Below, piece after piece: positions 415-26,320 of a stretch of 51,596 nucleotides of DNA. Position 1 is the stretch's first letter, and every line of letters begins with the position of its first letter. A model generated the notes under the pieces. It was not told where the DNA came from. It did no database searches and saw nothing but the letters and a program-made list of their open reading frames with translations. The position numbers and the translations under genes are program-made. The DNA is from a virus (lineage: Duplodnaviria; Heunggongvirae; Uroviricota; Caudoviricetes), in IMG/VR virus record IMGVR_UViG_2718218098_000003. The stretch is one strand, 5' to 3'.

Positions 415-603
415 ACATTTCAGCTGATGACCACCACGCTTTTTATTGACCATTTTGCACGCAAACTGGAAAACCTGGCGTCGTCATCTATTCTTAAAGG
501 GCAAGGCAACTAAGCCTGCATTAATGCCAACTTTTAGCGCACGGCTCTCTCCCAAGAGCCATTTCCCTGGACCGAATACAGGAATCGTATTCGGTCTTTT
601 TTT
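375..603 (-). ncRNA. ryeA: RyeA (SraC) antisense sRNA, 3' portion; 5' end probably displaced by the prophage
   Basis: Minus-strand terminator at 374-414 and full complementarity to sdsR; extent inferred from recalled K-12 locus, not seen directly. Confidence 0.3.
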
Positions 604-604
604 A
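501..604 (+). ncRNA. sdsR: Small RNA SdsR (RyeB)
   Basis: Sequence gcaaggcaactaagcctgcattaatgccaacttttagcgcacggctctctcccaagagcc...accgaatacaggaatcgtattcggtcttttttt matches recalled SdsR; ends in an intrinsic terminator that coincides with the att core. Confidence 0.7.
578..603. repeat. attL core (direct repeat with 50504-50530)
   Basis: acaggaatcgtattcggtcttttttt versus acaggaatcgtgttcggtctcttttta at right end; adjacent to int. Confidence 0.6.
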
Positions 605-734
605 ATTGTATTTAAAATCAATTAGTTGCAAACGTCTCCCCGAAATTACTCGAAATTTACTCGAATTTCTGTATTCCGGTCTTTTTTGATTATATCACAA
701 CCAAAACACATTTAACAATCCATTTACGTTAAAA

Positions 735-2164: not shown

Positions 2165-2425
2165 TCACGAGGACAGAAGTTTCTCGCAATTAAAATTTAT
2201 CAGCTTTACTTTCTGCTCTCTGGACACGCCTGCTTCTTTTTTCCCTGAGAGCATTTTTTCGCATTCTGATTTCGTTAATTTAGATTTTGAATATCTTGTC
2301 CAGTTAGTAGGAGTGCCACCTTCTTTTTCAATAGTGGCAGTTATTTTATACATGAACACCTCCATTATTATTTCCAGTAGTTCGTTTATTCCATCTTTCG
2401 AGTGCTTCTTTTTCACTTCCACCAT
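2165..2425 (-). CDS. Hypothetical protein (early-left operon)
   Basis: 86-aa ORF between xis and lar-like gene; no recognisable motif; start uncertain. Confidence 0.4.
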   Translation of the reverse strand: MVEVKKKHSKDGINELLEIIMEVFMYKITATIEKEGGTPTNWTRYSKSKLTKSECEKMLSGKKEAGVSREQKVKLINFNCEKLLSS

Positions 2426-15812: not shown

Positions 15813-15899
15813 AAACGGTTTGCGGGAAAAGGAGAGTTAAGTAGAATTGCTGCGGGTGCTTGAGGCTATCTGCCTCAGGCATGAACACCAACGGCAGAT

Positions 15900-15990
15900 A
15901 GAGAAAAGCCCCAGTTAACATTACGCGTCTTGCAGGACGCTTAACATTAATCTGAGGCCCAATCTATGTCTCACAAATGTAGGTTAGCCT
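15900..15990 (-). ncRNA. Candidate Sok-type antisense RNA region (not delimited)
   Basis: Placement inferred from hok/sok architecture; no promoter or terminator resolved. Confidence 0.2.
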
Positions 15991-16022
15991 CTTACGTGCC
16001 GAAAGGCAAGGAGAAGCAGGCT

Positions 16023-16178
16023 ATGAAGCAGCAAAAGGCGATGTTAATCGCCCTGATCGTCATCTGTTTAACCGTCATAGTGACGGCACTGGTAACGAGG
16101 AAAGACCTCTGCGAGGTACGAATCCGAACCGGCCAGACGGAGGTCGCTGTCTTCACAGCTTACGAACCTGAGGAGTAA
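16023..16178 (+). CDS. hok: Hok/Gef-family type I toxin (HokD/RelF-like)
   Basis: 51-aa MKQQKAMLIALIVICLTVIVTALVTRKDLCEVRIRTGQTEVAVFTAYEPEE; SD aaggag; in-frame upstream extension from 15966 (mok-like). Confidence 0.85.
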   Translation: MKQQKAMLIALIVICLTVIVTALVTRKDLCEVRIRTGQTEVAVFTAYEPEE

Positions 16179-19232: not shown

Positions 19233-19307
19233 GGCCCTTTAGCTCAGTGGTGAGAGCGAGCGACTCATAATCGCCAGGTCGCTGGTTCAAATCCAGCAAG
19301 GGCCACC
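19233..19307 (+). tRNA. tRNA-Ile (anticodon CAU, lysidine-type; ileX/ileZ-like)
   Basis: Cloverleaf read by hand; anticodon loop ctCATaa; close to recalled E. coli ileX. Confidence 0.8.
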
Positions 19308-19309
19308 TG

Positions 19310-19386
19310 TCGTCACTAGCTCACCTGGAAAGAGCATCAACCTTCTAAGTTGAGCGTACGAGGTTCGAGTCCTCGGTGGCGGTCCA
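19310..19386 (+). tRNA. tRNA-Arg (anticodon UCU)
   Basis: Anticodon loop ctTCTaa, T-loop ttcgagt, CCA encoded. Confidence 0.65.
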
Positions 19387-19388
19387 GT

Positions 19389-19464
<76 letters not shown>

Positions 19465-19467
19465 TAT

Positions 19468-19542
<75 letters not shown>

Positions 19543-20313
19543 GCATTTGAAACAAGCCTTATTGTATTGCGGCACTGGCGCATTTTTTTATTACGTGGGA
19601 GCAGGTTGTTTTGAAAAAGCATTCTGTTCTCTGGCTATGATTTGAGGCCGGGTGTAGCCTCAGTGCTGATTTTTTACGGCAGCAGAATGGTGCATTATCG
19701 GTGGAGATTTTGTATTTCCTGGCAGGGGCGGTGATGCATCATTTTGGTGTTGTAAAAGCACCGCAGAGGCGTTCCTCAGGGCGAGGGTGGTTTAAATAGT
19801 CGGTTTAGCGGGAAACCACAGTATCCATACAGCACGGAATACTTCGGGAGATACCCGACGCCTCGGTTTACTATAATAAAGACGAAGCATCCTTTGTATT
19901 GACAAACCGCCTGCTTAGACGGTTCTTTTTTGGCTGGTTTATTGTATGCCAAATCATTATTGAAAGGACTGTATTAATAACAAAATCCGAAATAATATGC
20001 CTGCATATTGTTAGTTTTCTTATGCTTTTTGTATATTGCTGCACCGCAGCCCCCCCTGCAACGAAAGTTGTATGATGAATAATTTTTATTTTTTCCTTTT
20101 CCAGTCATCTGAGGATGCTGGCTTCTTTTAGCTCCGGCCCGACAATACGGGGATATCACGTCAGGGGATGAAGGAATTAATTGCGTTGCCGGGGAAGCAT
20201 CGTCAGCTTTTTTAAGATAACTCCTGTGTGTTATGTGCATAAATGCTACAAACTCCACATTTTATGTGGTTGGGAGTTGCCGGGCGCGCAGTGAGTTTGC
20301 TAAGAAAACTCCT

Positions 20314-20415
20314 GCATGGTGAATCCCCCTGTGCGGTGGGGTGATACCATTAACTTTTTTGTCGCCGACAGGTATCACGAACGTTTTGTTCACCGGGAGG
20401 CACCCGGCACCATGC
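20314..20415 (+). other. Structured repeat element copy A (conserved 5' and 3' boxes, variable internal helix)
   Basis: gcatggtgaatccccctgtgcggtgggg...gtgatacc/ggtatcac...caccgggaggcacccggcaccatgc. Confidence 0.6.
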
Positions 20416-20580
20416 ACTTCAATAGATTCTCTCCACATTATTGATATTCTTTCAGAATATCCCACACAGACTTTGTGTAAATGTTAACGAATGTGCGTTT
20501 TATTTGATCTAATCCGCTGTTTGAGCGTTCAAAACAACGGTATATGTAATCCTTTACTATATGACATATTGTGAGGAAAA

Positions 20581-21009: not shown

Positions 21010-21207
21010 TTCTACATCTTTGCAGTAAACAATAATCATAATTGCATGTTTTTTCTGTGGTGGGGTATTTGGCTTCTGTTGCCTGCGATGTATTGTGGAG
21101 CTGGTATCAGCCTGCAGAAAATGCACACAGGTGTGAAGTGTTAAATTCCACACAACTCAGAACGCAGAATGTTGTCCTGCTTGCGGGGAGTTTGTTAAAA
21201 GAGTACT

Positions 21208-21329
21208 GCATGGTGAATCCTCATGAGCGGAGGGGCATAATGACAGATGTTTGGTCGCGTTATCGTATAGGCAAGTTGCGGATTCTGTCTGGTCATTGCA
21301 GAATTCACCGGGAGGCACCCGGCACCATG
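21208..21329 (+). other. Structured repeat element copy B
   Basis: gcatggtgaatcctcatgagcggagggg...aatgac/gtcatt...caccgggaggcacccggcaccatg. Confidence 0.6.
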
Positions 21330-21460
21330 TATTTTCAATATTTTATTGATTATTCTCTTTTTCGGAATACTCTGGTTATGTTTTCCTGTAACTGATAATT
21401 AAATCACATTTTGTGTAAATGTATATTGTCTGAACGGGATAAGTTCAGTATCTTCTGAAT

Positions 21461-21584
21461 GTATGGCGAATCCCCCTGTGCGGCGGGGCGTACTGATTTA
21501 AGTAGTCATCCAAGAATGCAGCTGAATGAAAACGCGCTCCATATTAATCAGTGGTGGAGCACCGGGAGGCACCCGGCGCCATAC
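21461..21584 (+). other. Structured repeat element copy C (compensatory changes in closing helix)
   Basis: gtatggcgaatccccctgtgcggcgggg...actgatt/aatcagt...caccgggaggcacccggcgccatac. Confidence 0.6.
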
Positions 21585-21610
21585 CGATGATGAAAATAAA
21601 TGCGTCCATC

Positions 21611-21636
21611 AGCCCCTCTCCGGAGGGGCTTTTTTA
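21611..21636 (+). terminator. Intrinsic terminator
   Basis: agcccctctccggaggggcttttt. Confidence 0.65.
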
Positions 21637-21641
21637 TGGGC

Positions 21642-21672
21642 AAAAAAAGCCCGCTACGAATGGTAACGGGCT
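21642..21672 (-). terminator. Minus-strand intrinsic terminator (back-to-back with 21611-21636)
   Basis: Plus strand aaaaaaagcccgctacgaatggtaacgggct. Confidence 0.45.
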
Positions 21673-21817
21673 GCACAAAATAACAAAATGTGAAGTATTC
21701 TAATCAGCCGCTGAATAATACCCGACAGTAATTAATCTGTGCAACGGCGCTTTTTCCCGCCTTGCAGGCACCGACTCTCTCATTTGATTTAACGCATTAT
21801 CCCGTCCGGGAGGGTTC

Positions 21818-22399
21818 ATGACATTTAAATATTATGATGTGGTTTCGGCCAGAACAACTGATGAATTAAAGCGGAAACTGAACGAAAAAATCCGTGAAGG
21901 ATGGCAGCCTTATGAAACAATATCTGTTTCATCTGTGAGTGGTACTGAAGACATATATCATCAGCCAGTTGCTGCTGAGGGGGAGGTGAGTACGCCGGTG
22001 ATACGTCCTGATGCAGGTGATGATTCATCTGTGGCTGTCTCCGGATCGCCTGATTATTACTACGTGGTGGTACTGGCGGGGCAGTCAAATGGCATGACCT
22101 ATGGTGAAGGGCTTCCGTTACCGGATTCATTTGACCGCCCGGACCCACGGATTAAGCAACTGGCACGCCGCAGCACGGTCACGCCAGGCGGTACGACGTG
22201 TAAATACAATGACATCATTCCGGCAGACCACTGCCTGCATGATGTGCAGGACATGAGCGGGATAAACCACCCGAAAGCTGACCTGAACAAGGGGCAGTAT
22301 GGTTGTGTGAGTCAGGGGCTGCATATTGCCAAAAAACTGCTGCCTTATATCCCGCAGAATGCCGGGATACTTCTGGTGCCCTGTTGCCGTGGCGGCTGA
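21818..22399 (+). pseudogene. Truncated nanS-p-type sialate O-acetylesterase (N-terminal part only)
   Basis: 193 aa; VVVLAGQSNGMTYGEGLPLP is the start of an SGNH/SASA esterase domain; full-length relatives recalled as >600 aa; SD ggagg. Confidence 0.55.
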
Positions 22400-22475
22400 A
22401 AAAATCAGTGCCGGTCAGTCAGCAGAGCCAAAGTCCACGTCCCTCCCGTAATCACATCTCACAGCGAGAAAAACC

Positions 22476-22781
22476 ATGACAGAAATGAAAAAACTGGTCA
22501 CTGCTGATGCAGTGAGATCTGCGCTGCGCACTGAAGAAGTCCGCGGGACGCTGAAAGCATCTATCCGTAAAACGTTTGAGGCTCAGATTGATGCTGATGT
22601 GGAAGCGATTCTGGATGAGCTTACCGGACCTGCTGAGGGGGCATCTGCGCCACAGGCAGGGGATGGTGAGAATACGGCAGATTCTCCGGTGGAAAACAGC
22701 AGCGAACAACCTGAGGCACAACCCGGTGGTGAGGAACAAGCAAATGATGTTCTGCAGCCGGAACCAGCAACCATGTTGTGA
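22476..22781 (+). CDS. Hypothetical acidic protein upstream of holin
   Basis: 101-aa ORF, acidic Pro/Glu-rich C-terminus. Confidence 0.4.
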   Translation: MTEMKKLVTADAVRSALRTEEVRGTLKASIRKTFEAQIDADVEAILDELTGPAEGASAPQAGDGENTADSPVENSSEQPEAQPGGEEQANDVLQPEPATML

Positions 22782-22858
22782 TACATGACGCACAGGCCAC
22801 CAGCATATCGCGGTGGTCTTTTGTTATCGTGCACTTCCGGTGAACGGGAGGCGGAGAT

Positions 22859-23074
22859 ATGTACCAGATGGAAAAAATCACAACAGGTGTGTCATACACC
22901 ACGTCTGCGGTGGGGACGGGATACTGGTTTCTGCAGTTGCTGGACAGGGTATCCCCGTCTCAGTGGGCGGCAATAGGCGTGCTGGGGAGTCTGCTGTTTG
23001 GTCTGCTGACATACCTGACGAACCTGTATTTCAAAATTAAAGAAGACCGACGCAAGGCGGCGCGGGGAGAGTAG
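22859..23074 (+). CDS. S: Pinholin (phage 21 S-type holin), dual start at 22859 and 22868
   Basis: [71 protein letters not shown] resembles recalled S21. Confidence 0.8.
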
Positions 23075-23077
23075 GTG

Positions 23078-23629
23078 ATGAAAAAACAATACGAACTGGT
23101 TGTTAAAGGGATAAATAATTACGGGGATAAGGTTACTGTTACTGTGAAGCCGGAAGGTGACGGGCAAGCGTCGCTGTTGTCGCAATATGTGGTGATTGAT
23201 CTTGATCGTGTTGAAGGTGCCCCGCTGGAGTGTTACGAAGCTGAGGCGAAAAAGCAGGCGAAGCAGTTTTTCATGGATGTAGCTGCCGGGTTATGTGGAG
23301 GGGATGAGCAGTCGCCGGAAAAGCGCCCCATAATTTTAGAGGCGCAGAATGTGTGGATAACCTACAGAGGAAAACTACCGGGAAGAATTACTGGTTCTCT
23401 GAAGACGCCACCGACGGCATTGCGGTCAGAAAAAGATGATATTGAATCGCTCATTGAAAAACTGGAGGGCAGCGTCGCTGATCTGAATAAAAAATTGTCG
23501 GTGCTGATTCCTTCTGAAGATGAAAAAAAACGCCGCGATGAGCAGTTTGCGGCGTTTTACGATTATTGCATTGAAGTTACTCGCAGGAATTTTGTGAAGA
23601 TCTTTGAGGAGGGTAAATCTCTTCAGTAA
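23078..23629 (+). CDS. Hypothetical protein inserted between holin and endolysin
   Basis: 184 aa; start abuts holin stop; no motif recognised. Confidence 0.45.
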   Translation: MKKQYELVVKGINNYGDKVTVTVKPEGDGQASLLSQYVVIDLDRVEGAPLECYEAEAKKQAKQFFMDVAAGLCGGDEQSPEKRPIILEAQNVWITYRGKLPGRITGSLKTPPTALRSEKDDIESLIEKLEGSVADLNKKLSVLIPSEDEKKRRDEQFAAFYDYCIEVTRRNFVKIFEEGKSLQ

Positions 23630-23837
23630 GCTTAATGGCGGACGCTGCAATTAATTCAGGAAGGTCCGCAAGGCCATCTGTCAGTGGATATGATGAAAAA
23701 TCGGCGGCAGTTCTGTTAAGAAGCGCTTTAACTAATTCCTTTTCCTTTTCCGGCAACAAGTTGATTAGAGCTACGACTGCTTGCCTGAGTGCGATTAAAT
23801 CAGCAAAAGTTTGTTTTGGTAGATTTGTGTAATCCAT
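23577..23837 (-). CDS. Hypothetical small protein, convergent with and overlapping 23078-23629
   Basis: 86 aa from MDYTNLPKQTFADLIALRQ...; SD agaggtg upstream of ATG 23837. Confidence 0.4.
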   Translation of the reverse strand: MDYTNLPKQTFADLIALRQAVVALINLLPEKEKELVKALLNRTAADFSSYPLTDGLADLPELIAASAIKLTEEIYPPQRSSQNSCE

Positions 23838-23951
23838 AGTCACCTCTGTGTTTATCAGATTGACATCCTCCTCCCGCCAGTGCCCATCACTGGCGAGGTA
23901 AGATTTAACATATCCGGGGGATTTGAAGCCGATAAATCCTGATAAATATCC

Positions 23952-24485
23952 ATGAACGTAAAAATCAGATACAGCCTGTCAGCTGCCGTTCTGGCGCTGA
24001 TTGCCGCCAGTGCTCCTGCCCCCGACATTCTCGATCAGTTTCTGGATGAAAAAGAGGGGAATCACACCACTGCATACCGCGATGGCTCCGGCATATGGAC
24101 CATCTGTCGGGGAGCAACGATGGTGGACGGTAAACCTGTTATTCCGGGAATGAAACTGTCGAAGGAAAAATGCGCCCAGGTTAACGCCATTGAGCGTGAT
24201 AAGGCGCTGGCATGGGTGGAGCGCAATATTAAAGTGCCACTGACCGAACCACAGAAAGCGGGTATAGCGTCATTTTGTCCCTATAACATTGGCCCCGGTA
24301 AGTGTCTCCCGTCGACGTTTTATAAGCGGCTTAATGCCGGTGATCGTAAGGGGGCATGCGAGGCGATTCGCTGGTGGATAAAAGATGGTGGGCGCGATTG
24401 CCGCATACGTTCAAATAACTGCTATGGACAGGTTATTCGTCGTGACCAGGAAAGCGCATTAGCCTGTTGGGGGATAGATCAGTGA
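23952..24485 (+). CDS. R: SAR endolysin (T4-lysozyme-type, signal-anchor-release)
   Basis: 177 aa; N-terminal SAR helix [18 protein letters not shown]; lysozyme core resembles recalled R21. Confidence 0.8.
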
Positions 24486-24949
24486 GCAGAGTCGCCGCGA
24501 TTATTTATGCTCTGGTTATCTGCATCATCGTCTGTCTGTTATGGGTGGTTAATCATTACCGTGATAACGCCATCGCCTACAAAGAACAGCGTGATAAAAA
24601 AGTCAGTGAGCTGAAGCAGGCGACCGCCACCATTACTGACATGCAGCAACGCCAGCGTGCTGCTGATGTACTCGATGCTAAATACACGAAGGAGTTGGCT
24701 GATGCGAAAGCTGAAAATGATGCTCTTCGGCGCAAGCTTGATAATGGTGGTCGGGTGCTCGTCAAAGGAAAATGCTCTGTGCCATCCTCAGCCGAAACCT
24801 CCAGCGCCTCCGGCATGGGCAATGATGCCACCGTCGAACTCTCTCCAGTTGCTGGACGAAACGTTCTCGGTATCCGGGACGGAATCATCAGAGACCAGAC
24901 AGCACTGAGAACGCTTCAGGAATATATCAGGACGCAATGCCTTCGATGA
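24482..24949 (+). CDS. Rz: i-spanin Rz
   Basis: GTG start overlapping endolysin stop; N-terminal [21 protein letters not shown] then coiled coil. Confidence 0.75.
24702..24908 (+). CDS. Rz1: o-spanin Rz1 (lipoprotein, embedded in Rz in +1 frame)
   Basis: [22 protein letters not shown] lipobox; Pro-rich [11 protein letters not shown]; SD ggag. Confidence 0.75.
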
Positions 24950-25130
24950 TAGCGATAATTTTACTCATCATCCTTCACATCTGGCTCTGTAGACAGGGTG
25001 TTGATCACTTCTGGAGTGAATCCAGATTAAACATCTCATTGCTGATGCTTGAAGTTGAGCATCTGGCGCGCGGTAAGGGGCTGCGTTGAGATAAGAGCCA
25101 GTCATTACAAATACCAGGATTTAGCCTCGT

Positions 25131-25156
25131 ATTCGCGGGGCTTTTTATTGCCATTA
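25131..25156 (+). terminator. Candidate terminator after lysis cassette
   Basis: agccactccctacagagtggcttt; weak T-tract. Confidence 0.3.
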
Positions 25157-26320
25157 CAAAAGCCACTCCCTACAGAGTGGCTTTGATAATGGCTTATACC
25201 CTACACGGGATAACTTAACTGATATCCCTTTTAACGGATAAAGGTATTCAAGCCTGACACATCATGCGCTGTATCGTCGTCGTATTCCCGTATTAACAGA
25301 GACCGTAGCCCGACGGGGAACTCCTTCTGCGCGAGTGTGCGGTAATAATCAAAAACGATGCGCACCGGGTTTTAGTGTGCTGACGGACGCAGGTTTACCC
25401 TCATAGTCGCTTTTCCGGTGCGATGGTGGAAGAAACCGGAATAATGAATTGTGAATGCAAAATGTGGTTTCTTACTGAGTAATACTGGCAGTGTTTTCTG
25501 TTTACATCCAGAACATATTTAAAGATGCCTGCACGGGAAAGAGTAAAGTGGCTCCGGAAGAAGGGTATGTTTCCGGATAAATGTTTTTTTATAACCAGTT
25601 TTGTCCAGATATTATTTGACCTGTGGTTTATATAAGCAGATCTTTTTTGGGGCTGTACCGTGATCATACTTTGATTATGTGTGGTAAACCTTATATTCCC
25701 TGTTGACAGAAAGTAAAAACAATGCGAGATGCCATTTTTATTAAGGTAATCAGTAACGGAAATAATATCATTATCGTGTGATGAAATAAGCAACGATATA
25801 ACAGAGGTTAGCCGACTATTCTCTGTGGAAACACAATCTGGTGGTGATAAATCTGAATGAGTTATGTAAAAATTGAACATGTAAAAAGATGGTGTTTAAC
25901 TGAAGGTATAGTACTGCTGGAAAATAATAAACTGAAAAGTGAATGTCTATTAGTTATTTCCGCATGGTAAATCAGAGGTATTGTTTTCTTGCTAATTTAT
26001 TAAAGTGATAAGTCTTATCTTGATTTTAGATATAAACTTTTATCAGGCCTTATCAACTTACATCTTCAGTATTGGAGGCAGTGCCAGTTACGTAAGGACG
26101 CAATGCCTGGTATTTAAGCGAAGTGATCTACTGAATAAATAATATTCCTCGCGCTTCTTAATGTTGCCGTGTTCCTGTGCCAAAAAAGCCAGATGTGCAC
26201 TATGCCTCAATATTGAGCGTGTACGTCGTAATGCACGGGATGGCCGCTATAAGCTGATTGGTTGATGAATTTAGGCCCGCTCTGGCTGGCGGGTCCTTTC
26301 CGGCGATCCGGCAGGTTACG

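What the first reader, a model, noticed from the sequence alone, without database searches (positions are those of the whole stretch)
23078..23895. Two-gene convergent insert splitting the holin-endolysin pair
In phage-21-type lysis cassettes the pinholin is normally followed directly by the SAR endolysin. Here a 184-aa ORF (23078-23629) starts right at the holin stop, and an 86-aa ORF on the opposite strand (23577-23837, good SD) overlaps its 3' end by ~50 nt. A perfect 8-5-8 palindrome cgccagtgcccatcactggcg lies at 23875-23895 just upstream of the minus-strand gene. Neither protein has a motif I recognise. A compact convergent pair with a palindromic operator, embedded in a lysis operon, could be a toxin-antitoxin or anti-phage/abortive module, or a lysis regulator.
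Basis: seen in the sequence. Interest (0 to 1): 0.6.

Follow-up and report, generated by a model that had tools for sequence, protein, structure and literature searches.

The report
Antisense moron beside ydfR in lysis operon
The "two-gene insert" between the holin and endolysin genes is a common prophage gene (ydfR family) plus a small, self-contained backwards-facing accessory gene of unknown function, so it looks like an ordinary phage "moron" rather than a toxin-antitoxin pair.

Summary

- **ORF A (23078-23629, +)** is not an unknown. Its first 112 residues are the DUF1327/YdfR domain. That gene sat between the class II holin and the lysozyme in nearly all 96 phage-21-type cassettes I surveyed, and it does so in K-12 Qin.
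- **ORF B (23577-23837, -)** is a real but narrowly distributed protein family (PHROG 2572). It occurs only in E. coli and Salmonella prophages, as a predicted acidic three-helix protein with no known domain or fold match.
- **B carries its own signals.** It has a Shine-Dalgarno site and an intrinsic terminator (23523-23558) embedded in ORF A's codons. A conserved upstream block may be a weak promoter.
- **B travels without A.** In Salmonella, B plus its terminator and upstream block sits after the Rz-like gene of an unrelated lysis cassette, with no YdfR.
- **The holin-endolysin gap is a variable slot.** At least six unrelated antisense small genes occupy it in different prophages. Four have a recognisable intrinsic terminator just after the stop; one hairpin lacks a clear U-tract and two were not examined.
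- **No link to known systems.** I found no similarity to toxin-antitoxin, defence or lysis-regulator families.

Best reading: B is an antisense moron, probably expressed in the lysogen. Its biochemical function is unknown.

The parts
22859..23074 (+). Class II (phage 21 S-type) pinholin gene; left neighbour, not part of the insert.
   Evidence: PF04971 Phage_holin_2_1, 7.2e-33. PGAP calls it a class II holin. Omega 0-0.18.
23078..23629 (+). ORF A, a long-form YdfR-family late gene of 183 aa (alternative GTG start at 23075). Residues 1-112 are the DUF1327 domain. Residues about 114-183 are a predicted helical hairpin extension that reads through B's terminator and into B's 3' end.
   Evidence: PF07041, 1.4e-33, residues 1-112. 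phrog_2091 over the full length, 1.5e-102. 279 homologues, all with PF07041 and lengths of 114-305 aa. AF2 model pLDDT 53: N-domain beta-beta-beta-alpha, C-terminal helices 120-143 and 147-182. PGAP in strain M8 marks it as a C-terminally incomplete YdfR pseudogene. Omega 0.42-0.96 for the N-domain.
23523..23558 (-). Intrinsic (bidirectional-type) terminator for gene B. The stem is AAAACGCCGC / GCGGCGUUUU with a 12-nt loop, and the U8 run on the minus strand is partly inside the stem. It is embedded in ORF A codons 'EKKRRDEQFAAFY'.
   Evidence: Fold; a 10-nt perfect inverted repeat. The hairpin is separated from the B stop by 18 nt. It is conserved downstream of the B homologues in Salmonella L093 and in L088/L144, with a compensatory G-C to A-U change (AACGCCACC/GGTGGCGTT). 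It is the only segment shared between ORF A and the Salmonella 73-aa ORF.
23577..23837 (-). ORF B, 86 aa: a small acidic (pI 4.7) protein predicted as three helices, in family PHROG 2572. It is the cargo gene of the antisense moron.
   Evidence: phrog_2572, 1.7e-52, with no Pfam, NCBIfam or PADLOC hit. RefSeq WP_073519624.1, hypothetical protein. Homologues only in E. coli and Salmonella prophages plus one metagenome contig. Frame test. AF2 pLDDT 72.7, helices 8-26, 30-48 and 59-74. No PDB fold match with E below 6.
23841..23846 (-). Shine-Dalgarno sequence GAGGTG of B, ending 3 nt before the ATG.
   Evidence: Read from the sequence. An equivalent AAGGA is conserved upstream of the Salmonella and L088 homologues.
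23875..23895 (.). The 8-5-8 GC-rich palindrome at the right-hand edge of the cargo. If B's promoter is as proposed, it forms a stem-loop a few nt from the 5' end of B's mRNA.
   Evidence: Kept, with 1-2 arm changes, in E. coli gaps carrying B, the 87-aa, 98-aa, 104/118-aa and 233-aa antisense genes. Absent or degenerate in short-form gaps, in the 90-aa class, and in L088 and Salmonella. The arm substitutions do not consistently favour either RNA strand.
23907..23935 (-). Candidate weak sigma-70 promoter for B: -35 TTATCG (23935-23930), 17-nt spacer, -10 TATGTT (23912-23907), inferred start near 23900. It lies in the leader of the endolysin gene.
   Evidence: The block ATATTTATCAGG..TTATC..GGATATGTTA is conserved upstream of B in E. 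coli, L088 and Salmonella, where no R gene is adjacent. It is also conserved upstream of the other antisense cargo genes. It matches only 7 of 12 consensus positions and was not called by the promoter scan, so this part is inferred.
23952..24485 (+). SAR-type lysozyme (rrrQ-like) gene; right neighbour.
   Evidence: PF00959, 2.6e-24. PGAP names it rrrQ. Omega 0.03-0.14.

Best explanation
The region combines a resident late gene with an inserted, self-contained antisense gene (a moron).

ORF A is a YdfR/DUF1327-family gene. It belongs to the Q-dependent late lysis operon and is probably translationally coupled to the holin. Its N-domain is the part that, in K-12 YdfR, binds the catalytic half of RNase E.

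ORF B is an independent unit. It comprises a weak promoter in the endolysin leader, a 5' stem-loop (the palindrome), an SD, an 86-aa ORF and an intrinsic terminator buried in ORF A's codons.

Inferred mode of action:
- In the lysogen the late operon is silent, and B is transcribed leftward to make a small acidic three-helix cytoplasmic protein. This protein probably acts by binding another protein. A host-modulating or superinfection-related role is my guess.
- After induction, terminator-resistant late transcription runs through the unit in the opposite direction. It expresses A and R, and it should silence B by polymerase collision and by pairing across the 53-nt overlap.

Shown: gene identities, B's coding status, the terminator, and B's portability and independence from A. 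Also shown is that the S-R gap carries alternative antisense cargo genes.

Inferred: the promoter, expression in lysogens, silencing on induction, and the protein's function.
For: 1. A is YdfR-family and ydfR is the normal occupant of the S-R gap.
2. The DNA from about 23400 to 23900 is absent from short-form cassettes. These share only 23900-23951 plus the ydfR N-terminal part.
3. GC is 0.44 over 23400-23999 against 0.52-0.55 in the flanks, and GC skew changes sign over B.
4. The terminator hairpin begins 18 nt after B's stop and is followed by a U-run on B's strand. It is conserved with a compensatory pair change in two lineages where B is about 40-50% identical.
5. The B family keeps its ORF, start and SD across that divergence, and B is the only one of six frames without stops.
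6. B moves without A. In Salmonella the order is Q, two holins, an endolysin with a weak Glyco_hydro_19 hit, DUF2514, a 73-aa ORF, then B in antisense, then the terminase. The same upstream block is retained.
7. At least six unrelated antisense small genes fill the same slot (PHROGs 2572, 2411, 18136, 25324, 1853 and a 233-aa ORF). For the 90-, 87- and 98-aa genes and the E. coli B form, a hairpin plus U-tract follows the stop. The L144 hairpin lacks a clear U-tract, and the 104/118- and 233-aa genes were not examined.
8. The same prophage has a second antisense gene (DUF1398, 25401-25880) after Rz, the position that bor occupies in lambda.
9. K-12 YdfR binds the RNase E N-terminal half through residues 1-72 and co-purifies RNA (PMC13232886).
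Against: - No expression data were available. The proposed promoter matches only 7 of 12 consensus positions, was missed by the consensus scan, and lies in a block also conserved in cassettes with no antisense gene.
- Purifying selection on B is modest: omega 0.24-0.74 within E. coli on few substitutions, and pN/pS 0.41-0.58 across genera. The wobble-coincident antisense frame scores nearly as well.
- The terminator's U-tract is weak in L088/L144 and only moderate in Salmonella.
- B is found only next to lysis genes, so a lysis-linked role is not excluded.
- The same hairpin also occurs in cargo types where the antisense gene ends about 500 nt away (L007). There it is not that gene's terminator.
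- B's function is entirely unknown.
Confidence: 0.62

Rival explanations
1. One reading: A and B form a toxin-antitoxin or abortive-infection pair, autoregulated through the palindrome as an operator.
For: The arrangement is compact. The 3' ends overlap by 53-59 nt in three lineages. B is small and acidic like many antitoxins. A palindrome lies upstream of B. A's family is fast-evolving, with omega up to 0.96.
Against: - The genes converge and are not co-transcribed.
- Neither has a Pfam, NCBIfam or PADLOC match to any toxin, antitoxin or defence family.
- The partners are not co-conserved. B pairs with an unrelated 73-aa ORF in Salmonella and with different YdfR C-termini elsewhere. YdfR occurs without B in most cassettes.
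- Overproducing K-12 YdfR changed only a few transcripts (PMC13232886).
- The palindrome is absent from L088 and Salmonella.
- The window already holds bona fide type I TA loci elsewhere: RalA and sok.
Confidence: 0.06
2. B, and perhaps A, regulates lysis. For example B might be a cytoplasmic factor that holds lysis proteins in check in the lysogen or tunes lysis timing, functionally like T4 RIII or other antiholin-type regulators.
For: Every B-family locus found lies inside or at the end of a lysis cassette, in E. coli, L088 and Salmonella. SAR endolysins are dangerous if expressed leakily (established knowledge). B's first helix is strongly hydrophobic, with a maximum 19-residue Kyte-Doolittle score of 1.6-1.7. 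A screen cited in PMC13232886 linked ydfR to envelope integrity.
Against: - The neighbouring lysis genes are unrelated between E. coli (S21 pinholin with a SAR lysozyme) and Salmonella (Phage_holin_8 and Phage_holin_3_7 holins with a weak Glyco_hydro_19 endolysin hit). A specific protein target is therefore unlikely.
- B faces against the late operon, so it should be shut off when lysis genes are expressed.
- It has no transmembrane segment or signal peptide.
- The slot holds at least six unrelated proteins, which suits interchangeable cargo better than a dedicated regulator.
Confidence: 0.12
3. The protein is incidental and what matters is leftward transcription. On this view an antisense promoter and bidirectional terminator between ydfR and R insulate the endolysin gene from leaky rightward transcription in the lysogen, or the transcript acts as an antisense RNA.
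For: The upstream block, palindrome and terminator are conserved while the ORFs between them are interchangeable. Constraint on B's protein sequence is weak. The hairpin can also fold on the plus strand, where UUUU follows it.
Against: B's ORF, start codon and SD persist across about 50% protein divergence with conservative substitutions and in-frame indels. Each alternative cargo is itself a conserved PHROG family. Short-form cassettes manage without any cargo.
Confidence: 0.12

Closest known systems
essQ-ydfR-rrrQ of the E. coli K-12 Qin prophage, and 'YdfR family protein' genes of Stx and other lambdoid phages (Pfam DUF1327)
   Same: The gene order is the same: class II holin, DUF1327 gene starting at the holin stop, then lysozyme. 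The N-domain is shared (PF07041, 115 bits). The E. coli B version of Qin (ATCC 11303) carries exactly this long ydfR plus B arrangement.
   Different: K-12 YdfR is 103 aa and the common phage form is 114 aa. Here the protein is 183 aa, with a helical C-terminal extension, and is followed by an antisense gene. PGAP treats the long form in strain M8 as a truncated pseudogene.
Morons of lambdoid phages (Juhala/Hendrix concept), such as lambda bor, which lies after Rz on the strand opposite the late genes and is expressed in lysogens (own knowledge)
   Same: It is a single small ORF with its own terminator and a probable promoter. It is inserted between genes that are adjacent in relatives, has lower GC than its flanks, faces against the late operon, and sits in or beside the lysis cassette. 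In Salmonella B occupies the bor-like position after the Rz-like gene.
   Different: B is unrelated in sequence to Bor, which is a lipoprotein; B has no signal peptide. Its expression in lysogens is untested. The terminator is embedded in the coding sequence of the convergent late gene.
Type II toxin-antitoxin modules
   Same: Two small adjacent genes on a mobile element, one encoding a small acidic helical protein, with a palindrome nearby.
   Different: The genes converge rather than forming an operon. Neither is homologous to a known family, the partners are not co-inherited, and no toxic domain is present.

Membership tests
YdfR / DUF1327 (PF07041) | Match to the Pfam model above its gathering score | tested here: met
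   115.4 bits against a cut-off of 25, residues 1-112. All 120 listed homologues carry PF07041.
YdfR / DUF1327 (PF07041) | Position between the class II holin and the lysozyme of a lambdoid prophage | tested here: met
   The survey of 96 gaps is.
YdfR / DUF1327 (PF07041) | Binding to the N-terminal catalytic half of RNase E (shown for K-12 YdfR residues 1-72, PMC13232886) | not testable with these tools
   Literature only. The window protein is diverged from the K-12 form.
Moron (autonomous accessory gene in a phage operon) | Absent from close relatives in which the flanking genes are adjacent | tested here: met
   Short-form cassettes lack about 23420-23900.
Moron (autonomous accessory gene in a phage operon) | Own factor-independent terminator | tested here: met
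   Hairpin 23527-23558 plus a U-run, 18 nt after B's stop, conserved with a compensatory change. This is sequence evidence only.
Moron (autonomous accessory gene in a phage operon) | Own promoter | tested here: inconclusive
   The conserved block contains TTATCG-N17-TATGTT (7 of 12 consensus positions). The consensus scan did not call it.
Moron (autonomous accessory gene in a phage operon) | Base composition differing from the flanks | tested here: met
   GC 0.435-0.45 against 0.52-0.55, with a change of sign in GC skew.
Moron (autonomous accessory gene in a phage operon) | Expressed from the repressed prophage | not testable with these tools
   No transcript or proteome data were available.
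Type II toxin-antitoxin | Co-transcribed bicistronic operon | tested here: not met
   The genes converge with overlapping 3' ends.
Type II toxin-antitoxin | Homology of either partner to a known toxin or antitoxin family | tested here: not met
   No such hits in Pfam, NCBIfam or PADLOC, and no PDB sequence or fold hits.
Type II toxin-antitoxin | Partners inherited together | tested here: not met
   B occurs with unrelated plus-strand ORFs, and YdfR mostly occurs without B.
Type I toxin-antitoxin (antisense RNA) | Small hydrophobic membrane toxin with an overlapping antisense RNA | tested here: not met
   Neither protein has a transmembrane segment. No Rfam antitoxin hit falls in 21500-26000. 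RalA and sok are elsewhere in the window.
Known anti-phage defence systems (PADLOC-DB 2.0) | Match to any defence protein model | tested here: not met
   No hit for A or B with E up to 1. The only hit among the alternative cargo proteins was a chance-level Cas6b match, E = 0.016.
Holin/antiholin-type lysis regulators | Transmembrane domain, or demonstrated binding to the holin or endolysin | tested here: not met
   No transmembrane segment or signal peptide. Binding is not testable here.

The most novel reading that the evidence does not exclude
The interval between ydfR and the endolysin gene of phage-21-type lysis cassettes could be a dedicated, hypervariable 'antisense cargo slot'. A shared leader block (candidate promoter) and, in most cargo types, the GC-rich 5' stem-loop would drive interchangeable small genes in the lysogen. 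At least six unrelated families occupy the slot; those measured (five, pI 4.5-6.2) are acidic to mildly acidic, and most are about 85-120 aa. These genes might be undescribed prophage-encoded defence, counter-defence or host-control effectors. The unit might also be functionally tied to the neighbouring YdfR protein, an RNase E binder, through mRNA stability.
Probability: 0.2. Interest if true: 0.6.

Novelty: new member of a known kind. Interest (0 to 1): 0.3.

Why it matters
As a single locus it matters little. Both ORFs are already annotated (a YdfR family protein and a hypothetical protein) and both sit in PHROG families of unknown function.

The broader pattern may be more useful. The holin-endolysin gap of very common E. 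coli prophages, including Stx phages and the Qin prophage of E. coli B, carries alternative antisense small genes of unknown function, most of those examined with a terminator of their own. That makes a compact, easily cloned set of candidates for lysogeny-expressed effectors.

It also shows that the most conserved peptide motif in long YdfR proteins (KKRRDEQFAAFY) is dictated by a terminator hairpin for the opposite strand. That is a caution for anyone analysing this family by protein sequence alone.

Tried and rejected
- **Family searches on A and B.** Pfam, NCBIfam, PADLOC and PHROGs gave only DUF1327 for A and unknown-function PHROGs for both.
- **Solved structures.** PDB sequence profile searches gave nothing.
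- **Remote homologues of B.** An exhaustive phmmer search and a profile search reached only E. coli and Salmonella relatives without domains.
- **Relatedness of the alternative cargo proteins to B.** hhalign gave probabilities of 0.7% or less, so this was rejected.
- **The Salmonella 73-aa ORF as a homologue of A's coiled coil.** Only the 13 hairpin-encoded residues match, so this was rejected.
- **Which RNA strand the palindrome works on.** The arm substitutions are mixed, so this is undecided.
- **Within-E. coli dN/dS for B.** There are too few substitutions, and the antisense frame shares its wobble positions with B, so it cannot discriminate.
- **Other.** The GTDB genome scans were nearly empty. 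Rfam found nothing in the locus. Literature searches found no paper on B or on antisense genes in the S-R gap.
Full report
**Observation.**
- A phage-21-type class II holin lies at 22859-23074 (PF04971, 7e-33).
- It is followed 3 nt later by ORF A (23078-23629, 183 aa; 184 aa from the GTG at 23075).
- ORF B lies on the opposite strand (23577-23837, 86 aa; SD GAGGTG at 23841-23846) and overlaps A's 3' end by 53 nt.
- The perfect 8-5-8 palindrome CGCCAGTG-CCCAT-CACTGGCG is at 23875-23895.
- A lysozyme with an N-terminal hydrophobic segment follows at 23952-24485 (PF00959), then an Rz-type spanin (PF03245).

The window is a complete lambdoid prophage that is 100% identical to one in mouse E. coli strains M8, M19 and others.

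**What ORF A is.** A is not an unknown protein.
- Residues 1-112 match Pfam DUF1327 (1.4e-33). The full length matches phrog_2091.
- RefSeq calls it 'YdfR family protein'.
- This family normally sits between the holin and the lysozyme in E. coli lambdoid prophages. Phage YYZ-2008 and many Stx phages have a 114-aa form in a gap of about 400 nt. K-12 Qin has essQ-ydfR-rrrQ.
- In 96 S-R gaps retrieved from IMG/VR with a 26-nt anchor at the R start, nearly all contain the DUF1327 N-domain.

So the premise that the pinholin is normally followed directly by the endolysin does not hold for this phage group.

The family is modular. It has a conserved N-domain, one of two alternative linkers, a helical segment (SEKDDIES.IEKLE...KKRRDEQFAAFYDYC) and alternative C-termini, giving lengths from 114 to 305 aa. 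It evolves fast: omega is 0.42-0.96 for the N-domain, against 0-0.18 for S and R.

The only functional data I found concern K-12 YdfR. It binds the catalytic N-terminal half of RNase E in two-hybrid and co-purification assays, residues 1-72 suffice, and it co-purifies RNA. Its overproduction changes few transcripts (PMC13232886).

**What ORF B is.** B matches phrog_2572 over its full length and nothing in Pfam, NCBIfam or PADLOC. RefSeq lists it as hypothetical protein WP_073519624.1.

An exhaustive phmmer search of 1.84 billion representatives and a profile search found relatives only in:
- E. coli, at 84% identity or more;
- Salmonella enterica (93 aa, about 49-54% identity, seen on more than 1000 contigs);
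- a few metagenome contigs, at 38-41% identity.

Across this divergence the ORF, its start and an SD are retained. Substitutions are conservative and indels are in frame. B's frame is the only one of six without stops. It has the lowest pN/pS in two of the three cross-lineage comparisons (0.41-0.58) and the most conservative mismatches.

Within E. coli there are too few substitutions to decide. The antisense frame that shares B's wobble positions is also largely open. I therefore take B to be a real but weakly constrained gene.

It is predicted as three helices (8-26, 30-48, 59-74; pLDDT 72.7). It is acidic (pI 4.7), has no transmembrane segment, and has no PDB fold match.

**B has its own terminator, inside ORF A.** Eighteen nt separate B's stop from a 10-bp stem on the minus strand, AAAACGCCGC-N12-GCGGCGUUUU. 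The stem is followed by further U residues, making a U8 run in total (23523-23558).
- In ORF A's frame this hairpin encodes EKKRRDEQFAAFY. The K/F and R/A symmetry of that peptide reflects the inverted repeat.
- The hairpin recurs at the same place after the B homologues in Salmonella (AACGCCGC...GCGGCGUU) and in the L088/L144 lineage. There it reads AACGCCACC...GGUGGCGUU, a compensatory G-C to A-U change plus one extra pair.
- BLASTP between ORF A and the 73-aa ORF that converges on B in Salmonella aligns only these 13 residues.

What is conserved, then, is B and its signals, not a protein partner.

**B's upstream region.** A block reading ATATTTATCAGG(A/C)(T/C)TTATC...GG(A/C)TAT(G/T)(T/G)TA is conserved upstream of B in E. 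coli, in L088 and in Salmonella, where no endolysin gene is adjacent.
- It contains TTATCG-N17-TATGTT (23935-23907), a weak sigma-70-like promoter matching 7 of 12 consensus positions. The consensus scan did not report it.
- If this promoter is used, transcription would start near 23900. The palindrome would then form a stem-loop close to the 5' end of B's mRNA.
- The palindrome is kept, with one or two arm changes, in E. coli gaps carrying several different antisense genes. It is absent or degenerate in short-form gaps, the 90-aa class, L088 and Salmonella.
- The arm substitutions give G-U pairs on the plus strand in some lineages and on the minus strand in others. Neither the strand nor the function is settled.
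- On its own the palindrome is not statistically unusual: there are 188 comparable inverted repeats in the window.

**B is portable and independent of A and of the lysis proteins.** In Salmonella prophages the order is:
1. Q antiterminator;
2. Phage_holin_8;
3. Phage_holin_3_7;
4. an endolysin with a weak Glyco_hydro_19 hit;
5. DUF2514 (Rz-like);
6. a 73-aa ORF;
7. B, in antisense;
8. small terminase.

This is the position bor occupies in lambda (own knowledge). In other E. coli-type loci B pairs with a 243-aa YdfR variant that has a different C-terminus (L144, L088). It also pairs with a stand-alone 67-aa helical ORF that lacks any DUF1327 domain (L142).

The DNA from about 23400 to 23999 has GC 0.44, against 0.52-0.55 in S and R, and GC skew changes sign over B. 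About 294 of 5426 complete E. coli genomes carry at least 80% of this insert. They include E. coli B ATCC 11303, in its Qin-like prophage.

**The S-R gap is a slot for alternative antisense genes.** The 96 surveyed gaps break down as follows:

| Content of the gap | Loci |
|---|---|
| Short form, no antisense gene | 22 |
| 114-aa YdfR plus an unrelated antisense 90-aa gene (phrog_2411) | 31 |
| B | 19 |
| Antisense 104/118-aa gene (phrog_1853) | 7 |
| The 130-aa plus-strand domain, with no anti104 match detected | 7 |
| YdfR with helical segment and no matched cargo (the example examined carries an antisense 87-aa gene, phrog_18136) | 5 |
| Antisense 233-aa ORF | 3 |
| Antisense 98-aa gene (phrog_25324) | 1 |
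| No holin detected | 1 |

- None of these proteins matches Pfam or PADLOC meaningfully.
- hhalign finds no relation between B and the three I compared.
- Of the five forms folded, the 90-, 87- and 98-aa genes and the E. coli B form have a hairpin plus U-tract just after the stop. The L144 B homologue has the hairpin but no clear U-tract. All five share the leader block upstream. The 104/118-aa and 233-aa genes were not examined.
- The same prophage has a second antisense gene (DUF1398, 25401-25880) after Rz.

**Interpretation.** The best-supported reading is that ORF A is the resident YdfR-family late gene. B is a classic moron: a self-contained accessory gene inserted against the direction of the late operon.

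A's C-terminal extension runs through the moron's terminator and into B's 3' end. The helical segment is probably genuine protein in E. coli lineages, because it tolerates in-frame indels and occurs as a stand-alone ORF. Its most conserved motif, however, is imposed by the hairpin.

By analogy with other antisense morons, I infer that B is made in the lysogen and silenced when Q-modified transcription sweeps through in the opposite direction. What the protein does is unknown. A small acidic helical protein most plausibly acts by binding another protein.

**Rivals.**
- The toxin-antitoxin or abortive-infection reading fails three of its defining tests: operon structure, homology and co-inheritance.
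- A lysis-regulator role is not excluded, because every B locus lies in or beside a lysis cassette. It is weakened by the unrelated lysis genes in Salmonella and by B's orientation.
- A transcription-only role, as an insulator or antisense RNA, is possible. It does not explain the conserved ORFs.

**Novelty and interest.** Both genes are already annotated and sit in families of unknown function, and the arrangement is widespread. As a locus this is a new member of a known kind (a moron next to ydfR), and interest is low to moderate.

I found no description of the variable antisense slot, or of the terminator-encoded YdfR motif, in the searchable literature. Both may be worth a short follow-up.

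Noticed in passing
window 25401-25880 (-): A second gene faces against the late operon, just after Rz/Rz1: a DUF1398 family protein (159 aa). It sits in the position bor occupies in lambda, which shows that this prophage carries more than one antisense accessory gene in its lysis region.
   Followed up: partly
window 2169-2347 (+) and 15854-16028 (+): Rfam gathering-level hits to RalA (the antitoxin sRNA of RalR/RalA) and to sok (hok/sok). These are genuine type I toxin-antitoxin loci elsewhere in the window.
   Followed up: no
window 20284-20457, 21179-21383, 21434-21641 (+): Three copies of the sRNA family STnc100 lie in the region between Q and the holin, upstream of the lysis genes.
   Followed up: no
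window 19233-19542 (+): A cluster of four tRNA genes (Met-CAT, Arg-TCT, Thr-TGT, Gly-TCC) lies downstream of the Q antiterminator gene. Per the M8 annotation, an IS200/IS605 transposase gene, iraM and a tolA-like gene lie between Q and the holin.
   Followed up: no
window 463-607: SraC/RyeA and SdsR/RyeB sRNA genes sit at the left end of the window, beyond the prophage's integrase-gene end.
   Followed up: no
L096, L113, L143, L006/L007, L005 (S-R gaps of other prophages): Five further, mutually unrelated antisense genes occupy the same slot between ydfR and R (90, 87, 98, 104/118 and 233 aa; phrog_2411, 18136, 25324, 1853, and none). The 90-, 87- and 98-aa genes each have a terminator just after the stop and share the upstream leader block. 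All are of unknown function.
   Followed up: partly
L006/L007/L120 (plus strand, downstream of the helical segment): Some YdfR-family or stand-alone coil proteins carry an additional conserved C-terminal domain of about 130 aa (...PSFVVSGDAGKITISENGK...LTYLKGRI). It has no Pfam match and is usually paired with the 104/118-aa antisense gene. That could be a genuine co-varying pair, unlike A and B.
   Followed up: no
window 23078-23419, as annotated in NZ_CP019953.1: In strain M8, PGAP annotates the 183-aa ORF A as a pseudogene ('YdfR family protein, missing C-terminus'). Identical-length ORFs in other genomes are annotated as intact YdfR family proteins, so the RefSeq treatment of long forms is inconsistent.
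   Followed up: partly
window 25150-25193: A 19-nt inverted repeat, 89% complementary with a 6-nt spacer, lies downstream of the spanin genes. It may be a terminator.
   Followed up: no
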